Of a stretch of DNA of 64,000 nt, positions 29,991 to 41,132 are shown in pieces; within the stretch, counting starts at the first letter, position 1; every line of letters begins with the position of its first letter. Position numbers and translations under genes: made by a program. This stretch comes from Acidobacteriota bacterium. Its GTDB lineage: Bacteria; Acidobacteriota; UBA6911; RPQK01; JAJDTT01. The notes under the pieces are model-generated. The model saw only the letters and a list, made by a program, of their open reading frames with translations. It did not search any database and was not told the origin of the DNA. The stretch spans positions 224,001-288,000 of the forward strand of contig OZ253580.1 of the NCBI GenBank assembly GCA_965263035.1. Reading direction: 5' to 3'.

Positions 29991-30280
29991 AGGAAAGAGA
30001 AAAGCTCCCCCACCGGCCCGGTCCGGCGGACGCCCGGTAGAAAAAGGGTAGGAGCGCCGGTTTCCAACCGCCGAACTCCGGTGGAGCATGGAGGAATGGG
30101 CGACTGGAAGTCGCCCCTCCTTGTTTCTTAGAAGAGTGAAGAAAGGCGCGTAATTTACGCGTAGCGGGCACCGCAACCGAAATGATCTCTTCAAGGCTAC
30201 CGGAGCCAGATTGGTTCGAAGCCTTGTTTCTCCCATGAATCCGCCGGGGCCCAGCCGGTGAGGGAGCTTTCCTCTTTCCT
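29991..30280. mobile_element. MITE-like element family B, copy B1 (~290 bp), containing an internal REP-like pair
   Basis: 27-bp TIRs AGGAAAGAGAAAAGCTCCCCCACCGGC / GCCGGTGAGGGAGCTTTCCTCTTTCCT (2 mismatches). Near copy at 36421-36712. Confidence 0.8.
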
Positions 30281-34825: not shown

Positions 34826-36222
34826 ACCCGTTTACGCCGAATGTACTCGCAGTTGCGGCCCGTGAGTTCATGCAACGCGTCAAGACAAAGTGGTTCATCC
34901 TGGGCACCATCGGAATGCCGGTGATCATGGTCGGGGTGGCATTCCTGATCGTTTTCGCGATGCGGGACGTGGAGGACTCCGAGCGGGGGAAGACCATCGG
35001 CGTCGTGGACACCGATGGCACCGTAGCGGACCTGCTGGTGGAGGAGTTGAACGACGGTTTCGTTACGGCCTCGAGGGTGCGCGATCTGGAACGTCTTCCC
35101 GCCCCCACGATCAGGGAGCGGTTCCTGTCGGCACCTTTCGACTACCTGCTGATTCTACCGTTGGGTGCCGCCGCTTCAGAGGGGGTGGCCCGCTCCCCGA
35201 ATCGACGGGAGCCGGCGAAGAACGGGGAAACGGATGACGCCGGGGACCGGCTGGCCGCCACCCTGCTGGGCAAGGACAGGGTCCCGTCGGCAACCCGGAG
35301 ATCGGTCCGAAATGCGCTCCAACGCGCCCTCTTGCAGACTCGCCTCCAAGCGGCGGGAGTCGAAGCGGTGGACGCTCGAGAGCTGTTGCGCAGACCTCGA
35401 TTGAATACGGTGAACGTCACCGAAACGGGCGATAGCCGCTCCCAGACCATACAGACCGTTGCCAGCATGGGTATCGTCTATGTCTTTTTCATGCTCCTGG
35501 TGGCTTACGGGCAGATGGTCCTGATGTCGACCATCGAGGACAAGCAATCGAACATCGTCGAAATCCTGGCATCGTCGTTACGCCCCTGGGAACTGATGTT
35601 GGGGAAGATACTGGGGTGCGGCGCCATGGCCCTGGCTCAGATCGGAATCTGGGCGCTGATGTTGGCGGCCACGGCGGGCTACGCTCTCGCCCGCGGCGGA
35701 TTGCCGAGCCTACCGTCCACCGCCCCTGTTTCCGGCGGCCCCGGCCCTCTCACCGGTGCTGCTGCCGAGTTGGCGGACATCGACCTGATTTCGGGCTCGA
35801 TCCCGTGGGACAGCATGGTCCCCGCTGTCCTTTTCTTCCTGCTCGGCTACCTCCTCTATACCTCGGTTTTCGCCGCTGTCGGGGCCACGGTCAGCGACCT
35901 TCAGGACGCCCAACAGGCGGTGACGCCCATCGTTTTCGTGAGCATGATCTCACTTGTCGCGGGCCCCTTGCTGATGGAGAGTCCCAACAACCGATGGGCC
36001 GTGATCCTGTCGATGGTCCCGCCCTTCAACGCCGTGGTGATGCCCTCCAGGCTCTTCGCCACCGAGGTGCCCTTCTGGCAGTGGGCACTCTCCCTCCTCC
36101 TGTTGGCCACGGGTGTGGCGGCCGCGGTCTGGGTGGCCGGGCGGATCTATCGGGTGGGAATCCTGATGAGGGGACAGCGCGCCAGCCTGCCCGAGATCGT
36201 TCGCTGGGTCCGCCACGGCTGA
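34822..36222 (+). CDS. ABC-2 type transporter permease (NatB-like)
   Basis: REF..RVK, IEDKQSNIVEILASSLRPWELMLGKILG, multiple TM segments. ATGA overlap with the ATPase gene. Confidence 0.9.
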   Translation: MNPFTPNVLAVAAREFMQRVKTKWFILGTIGMPVIMVGVAFLIVFAMRDVEDSERGKTIGVVDTDGTVADLLVEELNDGFVTASRVRDLERLPAPTIRERFLSAPFDYLLILPLGAAASEGVARSPNRREPAKNGETDDAGDRLAATLLGKDRVPSATRRSVRNALQRALLQTRLQAAGVEAVDARELLRRPRLNTVNVTETGDSRSQTIQTVASMGIVYVFFMLLVAYGQMVLMSTIEDKQSNIVEILASSLRPWELMLGKILGCGAMALAQIGIWALMLAATAGYALARGGLPSLPSTAPVSGGPGPLTGAAAELADIDLISGSIPWDSMVPAVLFFLLGYLLYTSVFAAVGATVSDLQDAQQAVTPIVFVSMISLVAGPLLMESPNNRWAVILSMVPPFNAVVMPSRLFATEVPFWQWALSLLLLATGVAAAVWVAGRIYRVGILMRGQRASLPEIVRWVRHG

Positions 36223-36275
36223 ACTGACCACCCCCTGCATTGGCCAACTCTCTCTAGAAAAACAATACGGGCACC

Positions 36276-36350
36276 CTGGGAGCGAGGACATTCTTGTCCC
36301 CGTCTTCATCGCCGACGCGGAACCGGCGGCTGGAAAGCTGTTGCTCCCAG
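36276..36350. repeat. Degenerate inverted REP-like pair
   Basis: CTGGGAGCGAGGACATTCTTGTCC ... GGCGGCTGGAAAGCTGTTGCTCCCAG with CTGGGAGC/GCTCCCAG outer arms. Confidence 0.6.
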
Positions 36351-36420
36351 ACATCCCGTTTTTCTGGTTGGATTGCGCCGGACCGGGGCCGGTGGGGGAC
36401 TTCTGAGAAACCGAGCAAAG

Positions 36421-36712
36421 AGCAAAGAGCAAAGCTCCCCCACCGGCCCGGTCCGGCGGACGCCCGGTAGAAAAAGGGTAGGAGCGCCGGTTTCCAACCG
36501 CCGAACTCCGGTGGAGCATGGAGGAATGGGCGACTGGAAGTCGCCCCTCCTTAGTTTCTTAGAAGAGTGAAGAAAGGCGCGTAGTTTACGCGTAGCGGGC
36601 ACCTCTACCGAAAACGATCTGGTTAAGGATTCTGGAGCCAGATTGGTTCGAAGGCTTGTTTCTTCCATGAATCGTCCGGAACCCAGCCGGTGAGGGAGCT
36701 TTTCTCTTTCCT
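36421..36712. mobile_element. MITE-like element family B, copy B2
   Basis: Co-linear with B1, same orientation, with the same TIRs. Confidence 0.8.
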
Positions 36713-36766
36713 CGCCTTCCCCTCGTCCTCATTGCACCCAGGTTCGGTTCGGCATAATCTGCCCCT

Positions 36767-37165
36767 GTGAAGACCCTGGCCAGCTCCATGCTCCTGCTCG
36801 TCCTGGCCACCAGTCCCATGGTCTGGGTGGTTCAAGAATCGGAGAGCGAGCCGGCGGCTTCGGTCTGCCCGACCCATGGGAGCGTCTGCTGCTGCCCGGT
36901 ATTGTGCCTGAAGCAGTTGAAGAACCCGGACGACGGTCATCGGGCCTGCGCCCGGCCGGTGCGGAAGGCGGACCCGCTCCGGTTCGTCGCCGACTGCGGA
37001 GCCGATCCCTTGGGCATCGGTTTCATGACCCTGAAGGCGGTCTTCCTGCCTCCGGTCCGGACCGATTTCGGAGACCTTGACTCCGGTCTTCCCCAGGACG
37101 CCCCCGTTCGAACACCCCTGGTTCCGCCAGCCGTAGAAGATCCTCCTCCACGCCGCTTCTCCTGA
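36767..37165 (+). CDS. Cys-rich exported leader protein ending in DPPPR; putative ribosome-arrest metal sensor (CruR/CutF-like)
   Basis: Hydrophobic N-terminus, CPTHGSVCCCPVLC...HRAC...C, Pro-rich C-terminus VPPAVEDPPPRRFS. Lies 110 bp upstream of the TonB receptor. Confidence 0.7.
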   Translation: MKTLASSMLLLVLATSPMVWVVQESESEPAASVCPTHGSVCCCPVLCLKQLKNPDDGHRACARPVRKADPLRFVADCGADPLGIGFMTLKAVFLPPVRTDFGDLDSGLPQDAPVRTPLVPPAVEDPPPRRFS

Positions 37166-37273
37166 ACCGACGACAGCAGTACGACGATTTCGGGTCCCCG
37201 ACCGCCGGAGTGACATCCGCGCGCCCGCCGGGGTCCCCGTCTCATCTGACCGTGCGACACCACAAGGAGGATC
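37139..37273 (+). promoter_or_regulatory. Putative anti-SD/SD pairing (GATCCTCCT 37139-37147 with AGGAGGATC 37265-37273)
   Basis: Exact 9-nt reverse complement covering the receptor SD. The anti-SD is the Asp-Pro-Pro codons of the leader ORF. Confidence 0.6.
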
Positions 37274-37275
37274 GT

Positions 37276-39591
37276 ATGCGCCGACTTATTGGCACCGCGG
37301 TCTGGCTCCAACTCGCCGGCATCGCTCCTGCGGGAGGGATGCTCCTGGCCTCGGAAGCCGAACCCATATTGTTCGAGGGCCGGGTCCTGGACCCTCACGG
37401 CTATCCCATTCCGGGCGCCGAAGTGAAGGCTCTCAGTTCCGGTCGACCGGTGGAGGCCCGCTTCACCGATGATCGAGGCGAGTTTCGGGTCCGCCTGAAA
37501 CCGGGACGCTACTCGTTGAGGGTCCGGGTGCCTGGATTTCAGATCTACGCAAAGACGTGGCTTCTAGGAGATGAGCCCCAGGAGTTGCTGTTGCGGCTGG
37601 AGGTGGACACCACCACGCAACATCTGGAGGTCAGGGCGAGTGCTCCCCGGATGCACAGCGAACTGGCTGTCGGGAGTGGCAAGATCGACCGTCAAGAGAG
37701 TCAGGACCTGGCCGAGCTCCTCCGGGGCGAGGCCGGAACGGCTGCGGTCCGGCGAGGACCCATCAACCTGGAACCGAACATTCGGGGCCTGCAGGAAAAC
37801 CAGATCGGAACCTTCGTGGACCGGACCCGGACTTTTGCCGCCGGTCCCGCCCGGATGGACTCGGACATGAGCCACGTCAGCCCCCACGCGGTTCGGTCCA
37901 TCCGTGTGGTCAAGGGACCCTACGCCCTGGGTTGGGGGGCCGGGGTTCTGAGCGGAATCCAAGTGCAGACCTTCCGGCCACCCTTCTACACCGGCGGCAG
38001 CCGATTCCATGGCCGGCTCGGGTACCGCTACGGACAGAATGCCGTCAACCAGGATGGACATGGCCTGTTCTGGGGCGGTAACGAGTGGATGCGGCTTCAT
38101 CTGCTCTTCAACCGGCGGCAGGGGAATGACTACCGTGCGGGCGACGGGAGCCGGGTCCCAGGCGACTACAAGTCGGACGACGTGCATTGGAGCCTGGGAT
38201 TCAAGCTCCTGCCGGAACTCGTCCTGGACTATGCAGGGAGCTACCAGCAACAGAATGGCATCGATTACCCCGGACGCATCCTGGACGCCACCTATTTCTA
38301 CACCCGGTCCAACGCCGTGGGGTTGACCTGGAATCCGGCCGGGGGAGCCCTTTCGGAGATCCGCGGCCAGTTCTACCTGAACTTGAAGGACCACCTCATG
38401 AACAACGAGGAGAAGCCGACGGCGCGTCCGATGCCCGGCCGCACGCCTCCCTTCGGTCTGCTGGTGGACATTCCCACCGAGTCGAACACCGTCGGTGGAG
38501 ACTTCTCGGCTCTGGTTGAGCGAGGTCTCTGGGACTGGAGGTTCGGACTGGACTTCTACAATTCGAACCAGTCGGCCACCCGGTCCATCTTCAGGCGAAG
38601 TCCCAGGGTCCTCCTGTTCCGGGACGTGGTCTGGCCCGATGCCGAATTGAACGACCAGGGATTCTACGTTCAGATGCGCCGCGAGGGGGAGCACTCCGAA
38701 CTGGCGGGGACGGTCCGATTCGACCGGGTCCAAGCCGCGGCGGGCGCCGTTTCCGATTTCTTCGCCGCCAACACCAAGGGCGGGCTCGACCAGGGGGAGA
38801 CTCATCTGAGCGCTGCCGTGAACGGCAGTTGGTGGATCAGCCGGGACGTGTCCTTGACCGCCGGACTGGGACGCGCCGTGCGAACCGCCACGGTCCTGGA
38901 ACGCTATTCGGACCGATTTCCCGCGACCAAGTTCCAGATCGCGGCCGAGTTCATGGGCAATCCGGCCTTGAACCCGGAAGCAAGCCTGGAATTCAATGTG
39001 GGCGGCAGTCTACTGCGGGAAAGGACCCACTTGGGCCTGGACCTCTTTCACCGCGAGATCGACAACTACATCACCGTGCAGGCGGACCCCTCCCTGCGGA
39101 AGCGTCTGCCTTTGAGCCCGCCGCTGGTGTTCCGCTACATCAACGGTTCGCAGGCCCGTTTCCGCGGAGCGGAATTGACGCTGGAACAGGACCTGACTTC
39201 CGTTTTTCGGCTCCGGGGATTCCTCTCCTACGTCTGGGGGGTGGATGAGCTGTTCGGAGAACCGATCCTGGGTCTACCCCCGTTTCAGGGACTGGCGGCT
39301 CTGGAACTGAGCTCGCCCGACCGGCGGTACTGGGTGGACCTGGCCGTGACGCTGGTGGACAGTCAAACTCGGGTGGCCTCCCGCCGGTTCGAGCAGATGA
39401 CCGATGGCTACACCATCGTCGATCTGAGAGGACGGGCTTCTCTCACCTCCGGATGGACTCTGAAGGCCGGGGTCGAAAACCTGGGTGATCGGCTCTACAG
39501 CAATCACCTCAACTCTCCGAATCCCTTTAACCGCCGCCGGATCCCGGAGCTGGGCCGGAATTTCTACGTGGGACTGGTGTACGAGTTTTGA
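37276..39591 (+). CDS. TonB-dependent receptor, OprC/NosA (copper receptor)-like, with N-terminal carboxypeptidase-regulatory-like domain
   Basis: SD AAGGAGG and signal peptide. Plug motifs EPNIRG...AGPARMD...IRVVKGPYAL. KDHLMNN, GNPALNPE, GVENL.DR.Y.NHL and C-terminal ...GLVYEF. Confidence 0.88.
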   Translation: MRRLIGTAVWLQLAGIAPAGGMLLASEAEPILFEGRVLDPHGYPIPGAEVKALSSGRPVEARFTDDRGEFRVRLKPGRYSLRVRVPGFQIYAKTWLLGDEPQELLLRLEVDTTTQHLEVRASAPRMHSELAVGSGKIDRQESQDLAELLRGEAGTAAVRRGPINLEPNIRGLQENQIGTFVDRTRTFAAGPARMDSDMSHVSPHAVRSIRVVKGPYALGWGAGVLSGIQVQTFRPPFYTGGSRFHGRLGYRYGQNAVNQDGHGLFWGGNEWMRLHLLFNRRQGNDYRAGDGSRVPGDYKSDDVHWSLGFKLLPELVLDYAGSYQQQNGIDYPGRILDATYFYTRSNAVGLTWNPAGGALSEIRGQFYLNLKDHLMNNEEKPTARPMPGRTPPFGLLVDIPTESNTVGGDFSALVERGLWDWRFGLDFYNSNQSATRSIFRRSPRVLLFRDVVWPDAELNDQGFYVQMRREGEHSELAGTVRFDRVQAAAGAVSDFFAANTKGGLDQGETHLSAAVNGSWWISRDVSLTAGLGRAVRTATVLERYSDRFPATKFQIAAEFMGNPALNPEASLEFNVGGSLLRERTHLGLDLFHREIDNYITVQADPSLRKRLPLSPPLVFRYINGSQARFRGAELTLEQDLTSVFRLRGFLSYVWGVDELFGEPILGLPPFQGLAALELSSPDRRYWVDLAVTLVDSQTRVASRRFEQMTDGYTIVDLRGRASLTSGWTLKAGVENLGDRLYSNHLNSPNPFNRRRIPELGRNFYVGLVYEF

Positions 39592-39815
39592 GGGAGCGGA
39601 GGCTTTCTTGCCGCCGGGGAGCGGCGACTTTCCAGTCGCCGATTAGGGGGAGTTAGGGGGGACGGTTAGTCCCCCCTCTACGCTTACCGGCCCCTACACC
39701 TTCCGACCGCCGAATCGTACAGCATCACAGAAGAGCAGGCGACAAGAAAGTCGCCTGTCCCAGTGGGCGACAAGAAAGTCGCCCCTCCTAGCAGGCGACA
39801 AGAAAGTCGCTCCTG
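39592..39815. repeat. REP-like cluster including three tandem GGCGACAAGAAAGTCGC units with 28-bp period
   Basis: Units at 39738, 39766 and 39794. The left part is an inverted copy of 9681-9766. Lies between convergent genes. Confidence 0.8.
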
Positions 39816-41132
39816 TCACACCACGCAACGCGGTTTCAGCAACCGCTGAAGCCTGGGGCTCTCCTCCAGAATAATGGTCTCGGACCGGTTTGGACCGGTG
39901 GAGATGATGGAGATATCCGCGCCGGTGAGTTCGCGAATCCGATGCAGGTAGGACTTGGCCTTCTCCGGCAGGTCGTCGTAATTCCGAATGTCGGAGGTGT
40001 CCCGCTGCCATCCGGGATGCGTCTCGTAGATGGGGCTCACCTCTTCAAGTGCTCCCACGTCCGTGGGGAAACTCGTCATTCGGGTCCCTCGGTAGCGGTA
40101 GCCGGTACAGATCCGAAGCTCTTTCAAATGGTCCAGTACATCCAATTTGGTGACGACCAGAGTGTCCACGTGGTTGATCAGATTGCTGTACCGGGCGACG
40201 ACGGCGTCGAACCATCCGCAACGCCTCGGCCGCCCCGTGGTGGCGCCGTACTCGACGCCCCGCTCGCGGATCTCCTCCCCTTCCTCACCGTCCAACTCGG
40301 TCGGAAACGGGCCGCCTCCGACACGAGTCGAATAGGCTTTGGTAATTCCCATCACTCCGTCGATGGCACCCGGCCCCACGCCGCACCCGGTGCAGGCTCC
40401 ACCGGCCGTGGCGTTCGAGGAGGTAACGAACGGATAGGTCCCGTGATCCACGTCCAGCAGCGTTCCCTGGGCGCCCTCGAAGAGGATGTTCTTTCCCCGC
40501 CGGATCTCGCGATTCAGGTACTCGGCCGTGTCGGTGACATAGGAGGCGATCCGTTCGCCGATCGCCAGATAGGTCTCCTCGATCTGGTCAGGGTTCACCC
40601 CGTCACGCCCGTAGACCCGGTTCAGGATTCGGTTCTTCAGATCGGCATAGTTGCGGAGCTTGGAGCGAAAGAGCCGGGGCGACAACAGGTCGCCGACCCG
40701 GATTCCCCGGCGGGCCATCTTGTCTTCATAACAGGGTCCGATGCCCCGGCTCGTGGTCCCGATTTTCGCCTTGCCCAACCGGCTTTCCTCGGCGCCCTCC
40801 AGCAACCGGTGGTAGGGCATGATCAGGTGTGCCCGGTTGCTGACATGGAGCCGGCCTTCCAAAGAGAACTCCCGGAGCGCCAGCAGTTCCTCTTCCAGCG
40901 CCACCGGGTCCACCACGACCCCGTTGCCGATGACGCAGACCTTGTCGGGGTGGAGGATCCCGGACGGAATCAAGTGAAGAACATACTTGGCGCCCGCAAC
41001 GGAAACGGTGTGCCCGGCATTGTGTCCACCCTGGTAACGGGCGACGACGTCGAAGTGACGTGTGGTCAGATCGACGATCTTTCCTTTGCCTTCGTCACCC
41101 CATTGGGTGCCGACGATCACGACGTTAGCCAT
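39816..41132 (-). CDS. purA: Adenylosuccinate synthetase
   Basis: QWGDEGKGK, GGHNAGHT, GTYPFVTSS and GATTGRPRRCGWFD motifs. Confidence 0.98.
   Translation of the reverse strand: MANVVIVGTQWGDEGKGKIVDLTTRHFDVVARYQGGHNAGHTVSVAGAKYVLHLIPSGILHPDKVCVIGNGVVVDPVALEEELLALREFSLEGRLHVSNRAHLIMPYHRLLEGAEESRLGKAKIGTTSRGIGPCYEDKMARRGIRVGDLLSPRLFRSKLRNYADLKNRILNRVYGRDGVNPDQIEETYLAIGERIASYVTDTAEYLNREIRRGKNILFEGAQGTLLDVDHGTYPFVTSSNATAGGACTGCGVGPGAIDGVMGITKAYSTRVGGGPFPTELDGEEGEEIRERGVEYGATTGRPRRCGWFDAVVARYSNLINHVDTLVVTKLDVLDHLKELRICTGYRYRGTRMTSFPTDVGALEEVSPIYETHPGWQRDTSDIRNYDDLPEKAKSYLHRIRELTGADISIISTGPNRSETIILEESPRLQRLLKPRCVV

What the first reader, a model, noticed from the sequence alone, without database searches (positions are those of the whole stretch)
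36767..39591. Candidate metal-sensing ribosome-stalling switch: Cys-rich leader ORF whose polyproline codons are the anti-SD of an OprC-like TonB receptor
Seen: a 132-aa ORF has a hydrophobic export signal, 7 Cys and 2 His (CPTHGSVCCCPVLC...HRAC...C) and ends VPPAVEDPPPRRFS, 110 nt before the receptor. The D-P-P codons GATCCTCCT (37139-37147) are the exact reverse complement of AGGAGGATC (37265-37273), which contains the receptor SD. The prolines use CCT/CCT/CCA, whereas CCG/CCC predominate in this GC-rich DNA. Known: Bordetella CruR (DUF2946, upstream of TonB transporter bfrG) and Rhodobacter CutF (upstream of cutO) are exported CxxC leader proteins with Pro-rich C-terminal arrest motifs that couple copper to downstream expression. 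SecM and MifM work by stall-induced unmasking of an SD. Inference: a ribosome paused at PPP covers the anti-SD and frees the receptor SD, while metal binding or export-driven pulling releases the stall and shuts import off. The CCC/His pattern and DPPPR motif differ from the CxxC/RAPP type, so this may be an undescribed acidobacterial family.
Basis: partly seen in the sequence, partly recalled or inferred. Interest (0 to 1): 0.85.

Follow-up and report, generated by a model that had tools for sequence, protein, structure and literature searches.

The report
Cysteine-rich polyproline leader before copper-type receptor
A small exported cysteine-rich protein ending in Pro-Pro-Pro-Arg sits in front of a copper-type outer-membrane receptor gene and most likely acts as a metal-sensing ribosome-stalling switch, a known kind of regulator found here in an unannotated family of soil and sponge bacteria.

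Summary

The ORF is real. It precedes the receptor in 8 of 8 genomes of the genus with an intact receptor. A leader of the same build precedes 27 of 30 orthologous receptors (38-57% identity) in other Acidobacteriota.

These leaders share four features:
- a hydrophobic N-terminus;
- a Cys 47-54 residues before the final proline run;
- a C-terminal PPPR (22 of 27; two have RGPP);
- a 69-213 nt gap before the receptor.

None matches Pfam. Profile comparison with DUF2946 is negative.

PPPR is not new: Rhodobacter CutF ends GPPPRL. This is therefore an unannotated family of CutF/CruR-type arrest leaders, placed before an OprC-like receptor that has Gly where OprC has its copper-binding Cys.

SD masking by the proline codons is predicted in all 8 genus loci. 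Other genera show differently spelled complements. Statistical support is moderate (P about 0.05 to 0.0004), not universal, and partly due to a genome-wide CCT bias in proline runs. Rho-dependent attenuation, as in CruR, is not excluded.

The parts
36732..36760 (+). Possible promoter (TTGCAC, 17 nt, TAATCT) ending 6 nt before the GTG start. No SD precedes the leader.
   Evidence: Inference only. Conservation among the 8 genus loci begins at this block, while the sequence further upstream is unalignable. The consensus scan found no sigma-70 site anywhere in 36200-37400. An RNA-library contig reaches upstream to 36684, which does not fit a leaderless start.
36767..37165 (+). Leader ORF, 132 aa: a CutF/CruR-type candidate arrest peptide.
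   Evidence: Searches give the ORF. 8 homologues were found at 73-98% identity. The ORF is present in 8 of 8 genus genomes with an intact receptor. dN/dS is 0.48-0.57. There is no Pfam or NCBIfam match. The AlphaFold2 model is mostly unstructured, with pLDDT 52.8.
36767..36832 (+). Residues 1-22: K2 plus a hydrophobic segment, the presumed Sec signal or signal anchor.
   Evidence: The sequence is shown. The model has a helix at residues 3-15. A hydrophobic N-terminal segment is present in 21 of 21 tabulated leaders. No signal-peptide predictor was available.
36866..36907 (+). Cys/His cluster C34-P-T-H-G-S-V-C-C-C-P-V-L-C47, which includes a CxxxC (C43-C47).
   Evidence: C34 and C43 are nearly invariant in the phylum-wide alignment A5. 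H37, G38, C41, C43 and C47 are invariant in alignment A2.
36995..36997 (+). Codon of C77, the only invariant residue of the family, 49 residues before the first Pro of PPP.
   Evidence: It is the only invariant column among the 17 sequences of A5. A Cys lies 47-54 residues before the terminal Pro run in 19 of 21 loci.
37142..37153 (+). Codons P126-P127-P128-R129 (CCT CCT CCA CGC), the presumed stall site.
   Evidence: PPPR ends 22 of 27 leaders found outside the genus; 2 end PPPQ, 1 QPPR and 2 RGPP. CutF ends GPPPRL, and its PPP is required for stalling.
37139..37152 (+). Anti-SD arm: GAUCCUCCU pairs with the SD, and the adjoining UCCACG pairs with 37253-37259.
   Evidence: In all 8 genus loci the MFE pairs GGAGG with ORF nt 376-380, the CCUCC of P126-P127.
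37080..37177 (+). C-rich, G-poor stretch (C/G ratio about 2.2), a possible Rho loading site.
   Evidence: The ratio is at or above the 95th to 99th percentile of 78-nt windows of this window. The CruR paper describes a C/T-rich, rare-codon stretch in the second half of cruR.
37192..37237 (+). Conserved G+C-rich hairpin in the gap, enclosed by the anti-SD/SD helix.
   Evidence: Only 2 of 43 consensus pairs show a compensatory change. There is no Rfam match.
37253..37273 (+). SD arm: CGUGCGA, then an 8-nt internal loop, then AGGAGGAUC. The SD core AGGAGG is at 37265-37270.
   Evidence: By my count from the invariant-column list, this block and the two bases after it (37252-37275) are invariant at 21 of 24 positions in the 8 loci. 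The whole gap is invariant at 65 of 110.
37276..39591 (+). TonB-dependent receptor, 771 aa: CarboxypepD_reg, Plug and barrel domains. It is OprC-like, with G190/M194/H373/M375 at OprC's C143/M147/H323/M325.
   Evidence: Pfam domains are. The best NCBIfam hit is TonB-copper at 178 bits, below the cut-off of 472. The best PDB match is OprC, E 4e-26, with the alignment shown. AGPxRMD is present in 16 of 16 orthologues.

Best explanation
The 132-aa ORF is a cis-acting sensor leader of the CutF/CruR kind. It controls the OprC-like TonB-dependent receptor that follows it on the same transcript.

Proposed mechanism:
1. The nascent chain is exported by its N-terminal hydrophobic segment.
2. The ribosome pauses at P126-P127-P128-R129, four codons before the stop.
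3. At that moment the invariant C77 lies about 50 residues from the peptidyl-transferase centre, just outside the exit tunnel. The C34-C47 cluster lies further out.
4. Whether the Cys residues bind metal (most likely copper) or form disulfides then decides how long the pause lasts.
5. The paused ribosome sits on the anti-SD (CCUCC of the Pro codons plus flanks), so the receptor's SD is free and the receptor is translated.
6. Once the leader is finished and the ribosome leaves, the tail re-pairs with the SD and translation of the importer stops.

For an importer, the sensible logic is that metal shortens the pause, as in CruR.

Shown:
- gene order, and conservation of the tail and of the Cys spacing;
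- predicted pairing.

Inferred:
- export, the stall, the ligand, the direction of regulation, and that masking limits translation.
For: (1) Linkage.
- The leader precedes the receptor in 8 of 8 genus genomes with an intact receptor.
- The ninth genome of the genus, G148, lost the leader together with the 5' part and the middle of the receptor.
- Outside the genus, a leader-like ORF precedes 27 of 30 orthologous receptors (38-57% identity). It precedes 0 of 3 receptors of 24-28% identity.

(2) What is conserved is what an arrest sensor needs.
- The terminal motif is PPPR in 22 of 27, PPPQ in 2, QPPR in 1 and RGPP in 2.
- It lies 2-7 residues from the stop in 20 of 21 tabulated loci.
- A Cys lies 47-54 residues before the proline run in 19 of 21.
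- C77 is the only invariant column of the 17-sequence alignment.
- The rest diverges to 13-27% identity, and dN/dS within the genus is about 0.5.
- The model is largely unstructured.

(3) Precedent.
- CutF ends GPPPRL. Its PPP, its CxxxC and a stem-loop shielding the cutO SD are all required.
- CruR has a fixed 45-residue Cys-to-RAPP spacing, a 162-nt gap and a TonB-dependent transporter downstream.
- RGPP is listed among the readily arresting motifs (abstract seen).

(4) Masking within the genus.
- In all 8 genus loci the MFE pairs GGAGG with the CCUCC of P126-P127, and P(unpaired) is 0.05 or less.
- With a footprint imposed on the PPP, P(unpaired) rises to 0.34-0.60 in 7 of 8 loci.
- The receptor SD has P(unpaired) 0.0002. 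The median of 250 control starts is 0.22, and 7.6% of controls are at or below 0.01.

(5) Masking in other genera.
- The complement is spelled differently elsewhere: ACCUCCCCAG/CUGGGGAGGU in L033, CCUCCGG/CCGGAGG in L036, CACCUCC/GGAGGUG in L067 and L069, CACCCCC/GGGGGUG in L059, CUCCACG/CGUGGAG in L030.
- Tested against synonymous recoding, with one locus per genus, Fisher P is 6e-3 for 15 genera and 0.05 without the window's genus.
- The SD-core version of the test gives 3.7e-3 and 1.8e-2.
- CCT at a non-final Pro of the terminal run occurs in 11 of 15 genera, against 1 of 15 at the final Pro. P is 4e-4 after correction for the proline-run context bias.
- The SD's MFE partner lies in the last 15 codons in 14 of 22 loci.

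(6) Contigs from two RNA libraries of one study span leader, gap and receptor start: 36684-37559 and 36779-37378.
Against: - No experiment bears on stalling, export, metal binding or masking.
- Within the genus the helix is invariant, so it cannot be tested by covariation. The alifold covariation term is +0.78. The one position that changes on both sides becomes a C-U mismatch in L012 and L013; in L014 the leader codon differs again and only the 6-nt core stays complementary.
- 26 of 41 four-fold sites are invariant, so conservation of CCT CCT says nothing.
- The energy-based duplex test is weak: Fisher 0.02 with 15 codons and 0.27 with 22.
- Several genera show no complement beyond expectation (g26, g42, g76, g98, g202, g300).
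- In L023, L039, L054 and L065 the SD's predicted partner lies in the gap, not in the tail.
- CCT is generally favoured inside proline runs in this genome. The correction factor for the other genomes is assumed, not measured.
- With one footprint-blocked locus (L009) the SD finds another partner.
- Gaps of 69-213 nt, and the C-rich, G-poor 3' end of the ORF, fit the Rho mechanism of CruR as well.
- The receptor lacks OprC's Cys ligand and scores far below the TonB-copper cut-off, so copper is a guess.
- RNA-library contigs may derive from DNA and cannot show one transcript.
Confidence: 0.55

Rival explanations
1. CruR-type transcription attenuation. The same leader and the same PPPR pause act through Rho. 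A paused ribosome shields a C-rich loading site at the 3' end of the ORF and keeps Rho from terminating in the long gap. When the pause is relieved, Rho terminates before the receptor. The SD pairing would then be secondary or incidental.
For: - The C/G ratio is about 2.2 over 37080-37177, at or above the 95th to 99th percentile of the window.
- The CruR paper reports a C/T-rich, rare-codon, unstructured stretch in the second half of cruR, a 162-nt gap, Rho-dependent termination and a TonB-dependent transporter downstream.
- Gaps here are 69-213 nt in every lineage.
- The CutF authors argue that stem-loop melting by a stalled ribosome suits short gaps.
- The SD complement is missing in several genera, while PPPR and the long gap are universal.
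Against: - No rut site or termination point can be identified by sequence.
- The anti-SD lies inside the footprint of the paused ribosome, so gap length is no obstacle to masking.
- The cross-genus complement and the position-specific CCT enrichment have no role in a pure Rho model, although CCU also adds the pyrimidine-C dinucleotides that Rho binds (recalled knowledge).
- RNA-library contigs run through the gap without a break (weak evidence).
Confidence: 0.22
2. The small protein works in trans in the periplasm, for example as a metal-binding partner, chaperone or redox protein for the receptor. Its proline tail serves the protein itself. The pairing with the SD gives only ordinary translational coupling of two operon genes.
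For: - Seven Cys and an export signal suit a periplasmic metal or redox protein.
- The gene is co-inherited with the receptor.
- Any ribosome passing the tail would open the helix, stalled or not (inference).
Against: - Only a few Cys and the last residues are conserved, while the body diverges to 13-27% identity.
- dN/dS is about 0.5.
- No fold is predicted: pLDDT 52.8, pTM 0.20, from a shallow alignment.
- The conserved element is a known stall motif placed 2-7 residues from the stop, with a fixed distance to a Cys. A folded protein has no reason to keep that arrangement.
- CutF itself is degraded after export and cannot act in trans.
Confidence: 0.13
3. The complement between the Pro codons and the SD is a by-product. 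Proline runs are CCN repeats, CCT is favoured inside runs, and strong SDs are GGAGG, so CCUCC/GGAGG pairs arise without selection. The leader, if regulatory, uses neither masking nor this helix.
For: - 40% of proline runs of 3 or more in this genome carry a non-final CCT.
- 0.9% of SD-bearing starts have a complement of 9 nt or more.
- 7.6% of control SDs are predicted as buried as this one.
- The duplex-energy test is not significant with 22 codons.
Against: - The flanks beyond the core match in the window (9 of 9), in L033 (10 of 10) and in L036, L059, L067 and L069 (7 of 7), each with different letters.
- Per-genus Fisher P is 6e-3.
- CCT enrichment stays at P 4e-4 to 7e-3 after correcting for context.
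- The SD's MFE partner is the 48-nt tail in 14 of 22 loci.
Confidence: 0.1

Closest known systems
CutF of Rhodobacter capsulatus (cutFOG operon; Ozturk et al., mBio 2023, PMC9973294; bioRxiv 10.1101/2025.02.05.636593). I read passages of both.
   Same: - A small (<150 aa) exported protein with a Cys motif: CxxxC in CutF, C43-x-x-x-C47 here.
- The same C-terminal motif, GPPPRL in CutF against DPPPRRFS here.
- It is the first gene of the operon and acts in cis.
- An mRNA structure shields the SD of the next gene and is thought to be opened by the paused ribosome.
   Different: - There is no detectable sequence or profile similarity to DUF2946.
- The downstream gene is an importer, not a detoxifying oxidase, so the logic is probably inverted.
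- The gap is 110 nt.
- The anti-SD lies in the stall codons themselves rather than in a stem-loop between the two genes.
- The organism is an acidobacterium.
CruR (Bp2923) of Bordetella pertussis, DUF2946 (Roy et al., mBio 2022, PMC9426467). I read passages.
   Same: - An upstream ORF with an export signal precedes a TonB-dependent transporter linked to copper.
- The intergenic region is long.
- The spacing between a Cys and the C-terminal Pro-Pro arrest motif is fixed: 45 residues in CruR, and here the Cys lies 47-54 residues before the run.
- The 3' part of the ORF is C-rich.
- The arrest motif lies a few residues from the stop.
   Different: - CruR has CXXC and RAPP, and it is a Pfam DUF2946 member.
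- It acts through Rho-dependent termination, independently of its signal peptide and of EF-P.
- Here the motifs are a single invariant Cys plus an N-terminal Cys cluster, with PPPR.
- The receptor is OprC-like, not of the CrtA/BfrG family (one search lists no such hit).
OprC/NosA copper receptors (Bhamidimarri et al., PLoS Biol 2021, PMC8610252). I read passages.
   Same: - It is the best match among solved structures (E 4e-26) and the best NCBIfam model (TonB-copper).
- M147, H323 and M325 of the CxxxM-HxM copper site align with M194, H373 and M375.
   Different: - The Cys ligand, which is essential for Cu(II) binding in OprC, is Gly in all 16 orthologues examined.
- The score is far below the equivalog cut-off (178 against 472).
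- There is an added N-terminal CarboxypepD_reg domain.
SecM, MifM and VemP monitoring substrates (named in passages of the CutF papers).
   Same: - An exported nascent chain carries a C-terminal arrest motif, and its stalled ribosome unmasks the SD of the downstream gene.
   Different: - Those systems sense secretion or insertion capacity and regulate Sec or YidC components. Here the downstream gene is a metal-type receptor and the leader is Cys-rich.

Membership tests
DUF2946 / CruR family (Pfam PF11162) | Match to the PF11162 profile. | tested here: not met
   - No hit at E<=1 for the window's leader.
- None at E<=0.1 for 10 distant leaders.
- No PF11162 match in the whole genome in six frames.
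- hhalign of the leader alignments against 4 acidobacterial DUF2946 proteins gives probability 0.2% and 0.8%.
DUF2946 / CruR family (Pfam PF11162) | CXXC motif and C-terminal RAPP. | tested here: not met
   - There is no CXXC; the window has CxxxC and a CCC cluster.
- The tail is DPPPR, not RAPP.
- The 4 true DUF2946 proteins found in the phylum do carry CxxC and RAPP or RGPP.
DUF2946 / CruR family (Pfam PF11162) | Fixed spacing between the metal-binding Cys and the arrest motif (45 residues in CruR). | tested here: inconclusive
   A fixed spacing exists but with another value. A Cys lies 47-54 residues before the proline run in 19 of 21 loci. This is the same principle, not the same number.
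CutF-like proteins (operational filter of Ozturk et al. 2023) | [quoted passage not shown] | tested here: met
   The leader is 132 aa, PPP lies at residues 126-128 of 132, and the gap is 110 nt. The filter itself was read.
CutF-like proteins (operational filter of Ozturk et al. 2023) | N-terminal signal peptide. | tested here: inconclusive
   K2 plus a hydrophobic stretch at residues 4-22, modelled as a helix at 3-15. No signal-peptide predictor was available and no clear cleavage site is seen.
CutF-like proteins (operational filter of Ozturk et al. 2023) | Cys-rich motif (CxxxC in CutF) and a PPPR-type tail. | tested here: met
   The window has C43-P-V-L-C47 and D-P-P-P-R. CutF's tail, P109-EPEGPPPRL-118, was read.
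CutF-like proteins (operational filter of Ozturk et al. 2023) | An mRNA structure shields the downstream SD and is opened by the stalled ribosome. | tested here: inconclusive
   It is predicted in 8 of 8 genus loci, and a footprint constraint relieves it in 7 of 8. There is no covariation within the genus and only moderate cross-genus support. No experiment exists.
Ribosome arrest peptide (functional class) | Translation pauses at the motif. | not testable with these tools
   This needs toeprinting, ribosome profiling or peptidyl-tRNA detection.
OprC/NosA TonB-dependent copper receptor (TIGR01778) | Score above the equivalog cut-off. | tested here: not met
   178 bits against a cut-off of 472.
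OprC/NosA TonB-dependent copper receptor (TIGR01778) | CxxxM-HxM copper site. | tested here: not met
   The site here is GxxxM-HxM: G190, M194, H373 and M375. Gly is at this place in 16 of 16 orthologues. The site definition was read.
TonB-dependent receptor (Pfam Plug + TonB_dep_Rec_b-barrel) | Plug and barrel domains above the gathering scores. | tested here: met
   PF07715 scores 43.6 bits and PF00593 scores 97.2 bits.

The most novel reading that the evidence does not exclude
Across Acidobacteriota an unannotated family of about 130-aa exported Cys-rich leaders governs an OprC-like receptor clade that has lost the Cys ligand. It would do so with a two-in-one element: the polyproline stall codons are themselves the anti-SD. 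The same nine or so nucleotides would then encode the arrest motif, hold the ribosome, and mask or unmask the receptor's SD. The leader and SD flanks would co-evolve lineage by lineage. The family would have reached the CutF/CruR architecture (Cys at a fixed distance of about 50 residues from a C-terminal PPPR) independently of DUF2946.
Probability: 0.4. Interest if true: 0.75.

Novelty: new variant of a known kind. Interest (0 to 1): 0.62.

Why it matters
Metal-sensing arrest leaders (CutF, CruR) are a recent discovery. So far they are tied to one Pfam family and mainly to Pseudomonadota and Bacteroidota.

This locus adds three things:
- The same architecture exists in at least 15 genera of Acidobacteriota, in a family that no profile recognises. 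Searches based on DUF2946 therefore undercount such switches.
- The architecture appears to be fixed by geometry (Cys about 50 residues from PPPR, 2-7 residues before the stop) rather than by sequence. This gives a sequence-independent rule for finding more.
- The stall codons may also serve as the anti-SD. Synonymous and compensatory mutations could test that directly.

It also defines an OprC-like receptor clade with Gly in place of the copper-binding Cys. Its ligand is open.

Tried and rejected
Leads that went nowhere:
- The sequence search for relatives of the leader stayed within the genus. There were 8 proteins. An HMM over 1.84 billion representatives gave only the leader's own cluster plus one 136-aa relative, P0009, and P0009 has no relatives of its own.
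- The JGI metagenome scan found none.
- A profile of 17 diverse leaders found 12 proteins, all unnamed (only 8000 word-sharing candidates were scored).
- The wider family was found only by walking upstream of receptor orthologues.
- ESM Atlas gave 29 of 30 hits in unnamed clusters and one DUF6769 cluster at 0.94. It returns no sequences, so I did not follow it up.
- The promoter scan found no site in 36200-37400, not even before the leader. It therefore cannot say whether the gap holds a promoter.
- Rfam gave only sub-threshold hairpin matches, all inside the upstream repeat.
- A genome-wide scan of G000 for other small ORFs with a signal, 3 or more Cys, a C-terminal PP and a long downstream gene returned 3 candidates. 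Only this one is convincing.
- In the fold of L023 the SD pairs elsewhere, although a 7-of-8 complement to its PPP codons exists.
- The column-wise covariation count across family f44 was abandoned because the gaps do not align.
- The joints in the read laying (36509 to 39592) first looked like a form lacking leader and receptor. They are explained by a multi-copy repeat: the 18-mer has 34 exact copies in G000.
- Depth in the laid contigs was not used to rank expression, as the tool advises.
- The leaderless-mRNA idea for the leader is not supported by the contig that starts at 36684 and remains a guess.
- Supplementary lists of CutF-like and DUF2946 proteins could not be read. They may already contain acidobacterial members.
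- 'Not in print' rests on three searches and on the absence of 'Acidobacteri' from the main text of PMC9973294.

Full report
**1. The observation**

- The GTG-initiated ORF runs 36767-37165 and encodes 132 aa.
- It has K2 followed by a hydrophobic stretch, Cys at 34, 41, 42, 43, 47, 61 and 77, and His at 37 and 58.
- The tail is VPPAVEDPPPRRFS, with the stop at 37163-37165.
- The receptor ATG is at 37276, after AAGGAGGATCGT, so the gap is 110 nt.
- GATCCTCCT (37139-37147) is the exact reverse complement of AGGAGGATC (37265-37273).

The MFE and centroid folds of 37100-37300 pair these two 9-mers. The fold as a whole is not more stable than shuffles (z -0.59).

- A perfect complement of 9 nt or more covering the GGAGG, within 200 nt upstream, occurs at 12 of 1389 GGAGG-bearing starts of this genome.
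- CCT is only 10.7% of all Pro codons. Inside proline runs, however, it fills 23% of non-final Pro codons, and 175 of 434 runs of three or more contain one.

**2. The ORF is a real gene tied to the receptor**

- Eight homologues at 73-98% identity exist, one named only 'hypothetical protein' from a Candidatus Aminicenantes MAG.
- Record titles of related loci read Acidobacteriota.
- Of the nine genomes of the genus, eight have a full-length receptor at 87-100% identity, and all eight have the leader immediately upstream with a gap of 110-112 nt.
- The ninth genome, G148, keeps the upstream ABC-2 permease gene. It has lost the leader, the gap, the first about 370 nt of the receptor and its middle.
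- dN/dS within the genus is 0.48-0.57. Variable columns by codon position are 38, 43 and 64. This is a weakly constrained coding sequence.
- The AlphaFold2 model from a 10-sequence alignment has mean pLDDT 52.8 and pTM 0.20, with only the N-terminal helix and one short helix.

**3. The receptor**

- Pfam finds CarboxypepD_reg, Plug and the TonB barrel.
- The best NCBIfam model is TonB-copper, at 178 bits against a cut-off of 472.
- The best solved relative is OprC, E 4e-26.
- In that alignment OprC's copper ligands C143, M147, H323 and M325 (defined in PMC8610252, passages read) face G190, M194, H373 and M375.
- All 16 orthologues I looked at have AGPxRMD, that is Gly at the Cys position.

'OprC-like' is therefore fair, but this is a separate clade and copper is not established.

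**4. The wider family**

Sequence searches with the leader stop at the genus, with one lone 136-aa relative. Walking upstream of receptor orthologues was what worked.

Two searches supplied the loci:
- 401 genomes of the phylum, of which 36 had a match at E<=1e-30;
- 251 genomes of the class of G110, of which 23 had a match at E<=1e-80.

Together with L023, these gave 30 orthologous loci outside the genus at 38-57% identity.
- In 27 of the 30, an ORF on the same strand ends 69-213 nt before the receptor start. It has a hydrophobic N-terminal segment, three or more Cys and a proline run at its end.
- It was not found in L038, L057 or L071.
- It was found before none of the three receptors of 24-28% identity.

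The tails are PPPR in 22, PPPQ in 2, QPPR in 1 and RGPP in 2.

In the 21 loci tabulated:
- the last Pro is 2-7 residues from the stop in 20; L023 has 17;
- a Cys lies 47-54 residues before the first Pro of the run in 19.

MAFFT of 17 diverse members gives a single invariant column, C77. C34, C43, P126 and P127 are nearly invariant. Overall identity to the window's protein is 13-27% for members outside the genus.

None of 10 distant leaders has any Pfam match at E<=0.1.

**5. Relation to what is known**

CruR (PMC9426467, passages read):
- is an exported DUF2946 protein with CXXC and a RAPP motif three residues from its end;
- has a 162-nt gap and a TonB-dependent transporter downstream;
- stalls at RAPP, which blocks Rho; copper relieves the stall.

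CutF (PMC9973294 and the 2025 preprint, passages read):
- has a Sec signal and a CxxxC;
- has the C-terminus P109-EPEGPPPRL-118;

So PPPR is the CutF motif, not a new one, and the window's C43-P-V-L-C47 is a CxxxC. The window's ORF passes the authors' operational filter for CutF-like proteins.

It is not a detectable DUF2946 member.
- There is no PF11162 hit for the protein or anywhere in the genome.
- Profile-profile comparison with four genuine acidobacterial DUF2946 proteins gives 0.2% and 0.8% probability. Those four do carry CxxC and RAPP or RGPP.

I therefore file it as working like CutF/CruR, but not as a member of DUF2946.

I found no paper describing such leaders in Acidobacteriota. 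The supplementary lists of the two key papers were closed.

**6. Is the SD masked by the proline codons?**

*Within the genus*
- The prediction is uniform. In all 8 loci the MFE pairs GGAGG with the CCUCC of P126-P127, and P(unpaired) is 0.05 or less.
- Forcing a 28-nt footprint around P127 to be single-stranded raises P(unpaired) to 0.34-0.60 in 7 of 8 loci. In L009 another CCUCC takes over.
- RNAalifold adds a second helix, UCCACG with CGUG-GA, beyond an 8-nt internal loop.
- Against 250 control starts the receptor's SD is among the most buried: 0.0002 against a median of 0.22, with 7.6% of controls at or below 0.01.
- The genus is too uniform to test the helix. 26 of 41 four-fold sites are invariant, and the covariation term is +0.78.
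- The only helix position that changes on both sides becomes C-U in L012 and L013. In L014 the leader codon differs again, so only the 6-nt CCUCCU/AGGAGG core stays complementary.

*Across genera*

| Locus | Leader tail | SD region |
|---|---|---|
| L033 | ACCUCCCCAG | CUGGGGAGGU |
| L036 | CCUCCGG | CCGGAGG |
| L063 | ACCUCCG | CGGAGGU |
| L067, L069 | CACCUCC | GGAGGUG |
| L059 | CACCCCC | GGGGGUG |
| L030 | CUCCACG | CGUGGAG |

In L037 and L040, by eye, the complements are 10 of 11 and 9 of 10.

Formal tests against synonymous recoding used local codon usage with pseudocounts.

| Test | Result |
|---|---|
| Longest complement, one locus per genus, 15 genera | Fisher P 6e-3 |
| Same, without the window's genus | 0.05 |
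| SD-core version, 12 loci | 3.7e-3 |
| SD-core version, 9 loci without the window | 1.8e-2 |
| Duplex energy, last 15 codons | 0.02 |
| Duplex energy, last 22 codons | 0.27 |

CCT sits at a non-final Pro of the terminal run in 11 of 15 genera (14 of 29 such codons). It sits at the final Pro in 1 of 15.
- The naive P is 2.8e-7.
- After correcting for the proline-run bias measured in G000 (factor 2.15), P is 4e-4. With a factor of 3 it is 7e-3.

The SD's MFE partner lies in the last 15 codons in 14 of 22 loci. These cover 8 of 15 genera, plus one of two loci in a ninth.

Several genera (g26, g42, g76, g98, g202, g300) show nothing beyond expectation. I read this as real but lineage-dependent use of the proline codons as anti-SD.

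**7. The rival mechanism**

- The last 100 nt of the ORF are C-rich and G-poor, with a C/G ratio of about 2.2.
- The gaps are long in every lineage.
- CruR, the closest analogue by gene order, works through Rho.

Nothing here excludes the possibility that the pause acts by blocking Rho, alone or together with SD masking. The universal features (Cys spacing, PPPR, long gap) fit both mechanisms. Only the complement and the CCT pattern speak for masking in particular.

**8. Expression**

Contigs from two metatranscriptome libraries of one study cover 36684-37559 and 36779-37378, with 4-5 differences. They therefore span leader, gap and receptor start. As the tool notes, such contigs may include DNA and do not prove one transcript.

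**9. Verdict**

This is very probably a metal-responsive arrest leader of the CutF/CruR kind, in a family that no database recognises.
- The 'Pro codons = anti-SD' idea has moderate comparative support.
- The claimed novelty of the PPPR motif is wrong.
- The metal, the direction of control, the stall itself and the share of Rho are all untested.

My confidence in the best explanation as a whole is about 0.55.

Noticed in passing
window 36254-36761: The gap between the ABC-2 permease stop (36222) and the leader is 545 nt here but only about 110 nt in the 7 related loci. The extra DNA is a copy of a dispersed repeat. An 18-mer from it has 34 exact copies in G000, many with more than 90 nt of flanking similarity, and one lies at window position 30062. 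It has very high depth in all laid runs and causes apparent joints to 39592.
   Followed up: partly
window 39592-39830: Directly after the receptor stop come hairpin units GGCGAC-N6-GTCGCC, three of them in tandem at 28-nt spacing (39738-39821). The pattern occurs 122 times on the + strand of the genome. This is a REP-like element family.
   Followed up: partly
L024 (G148), positions 748-2438: In one genome of the genus the locus has decayed. The permease end is kept. The leader, the gap, the first about 370 nt of the receptor and its middle (window 37877-39239) are missing.
   Followed up: yes
L035 and L056: Two leaders before the same receptor clade end in P-R-G-P-P plus 7 residues instead of PPPR. 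RGPP is a published strong arrest motif. The two motif types therefore seem interchangeable in this family.
   Followed up: partly
L026-L029: [quoted passage not shown] None is in the window's genus. Their downstream genes were not examined.
   Followed up: no
whole genome G000: Codon choice in proline runs is position-dependent. CCT is 23% at non-final positions of runs, 11% at the final position and 10.7% overall. This general bias matters for any argument from 'rare' CCT in PP motifs.
   Followed up: yes
L037 (G325); L071/L072 (G702): In L037 the leader reads in two frames: the Cys-rich part in one and the PPSPPPRA tail in another. This is a frameshift or an assembly error. In G702 the receptor carries an in-frame TGA, and no leader was found by the script.
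   Followed up: no
window 36732-36766: The leader's GTG has no SD. It is preceded by a block conserved in all 8 genus loci that can be read as TTGCAC-17 nt-TAATCT, 6 nt before the start. This may be a promoter with a very short 5' leader.
   Followed up: partly
L030 (G157): The receptor's reading frame is open from the base after the leader's TGA, in the same frame as the leader, for 147 nt up to the ATG that I took as the receptor start. Read-through of the stop would fuse the two. Probably chance.
   Followed up: no
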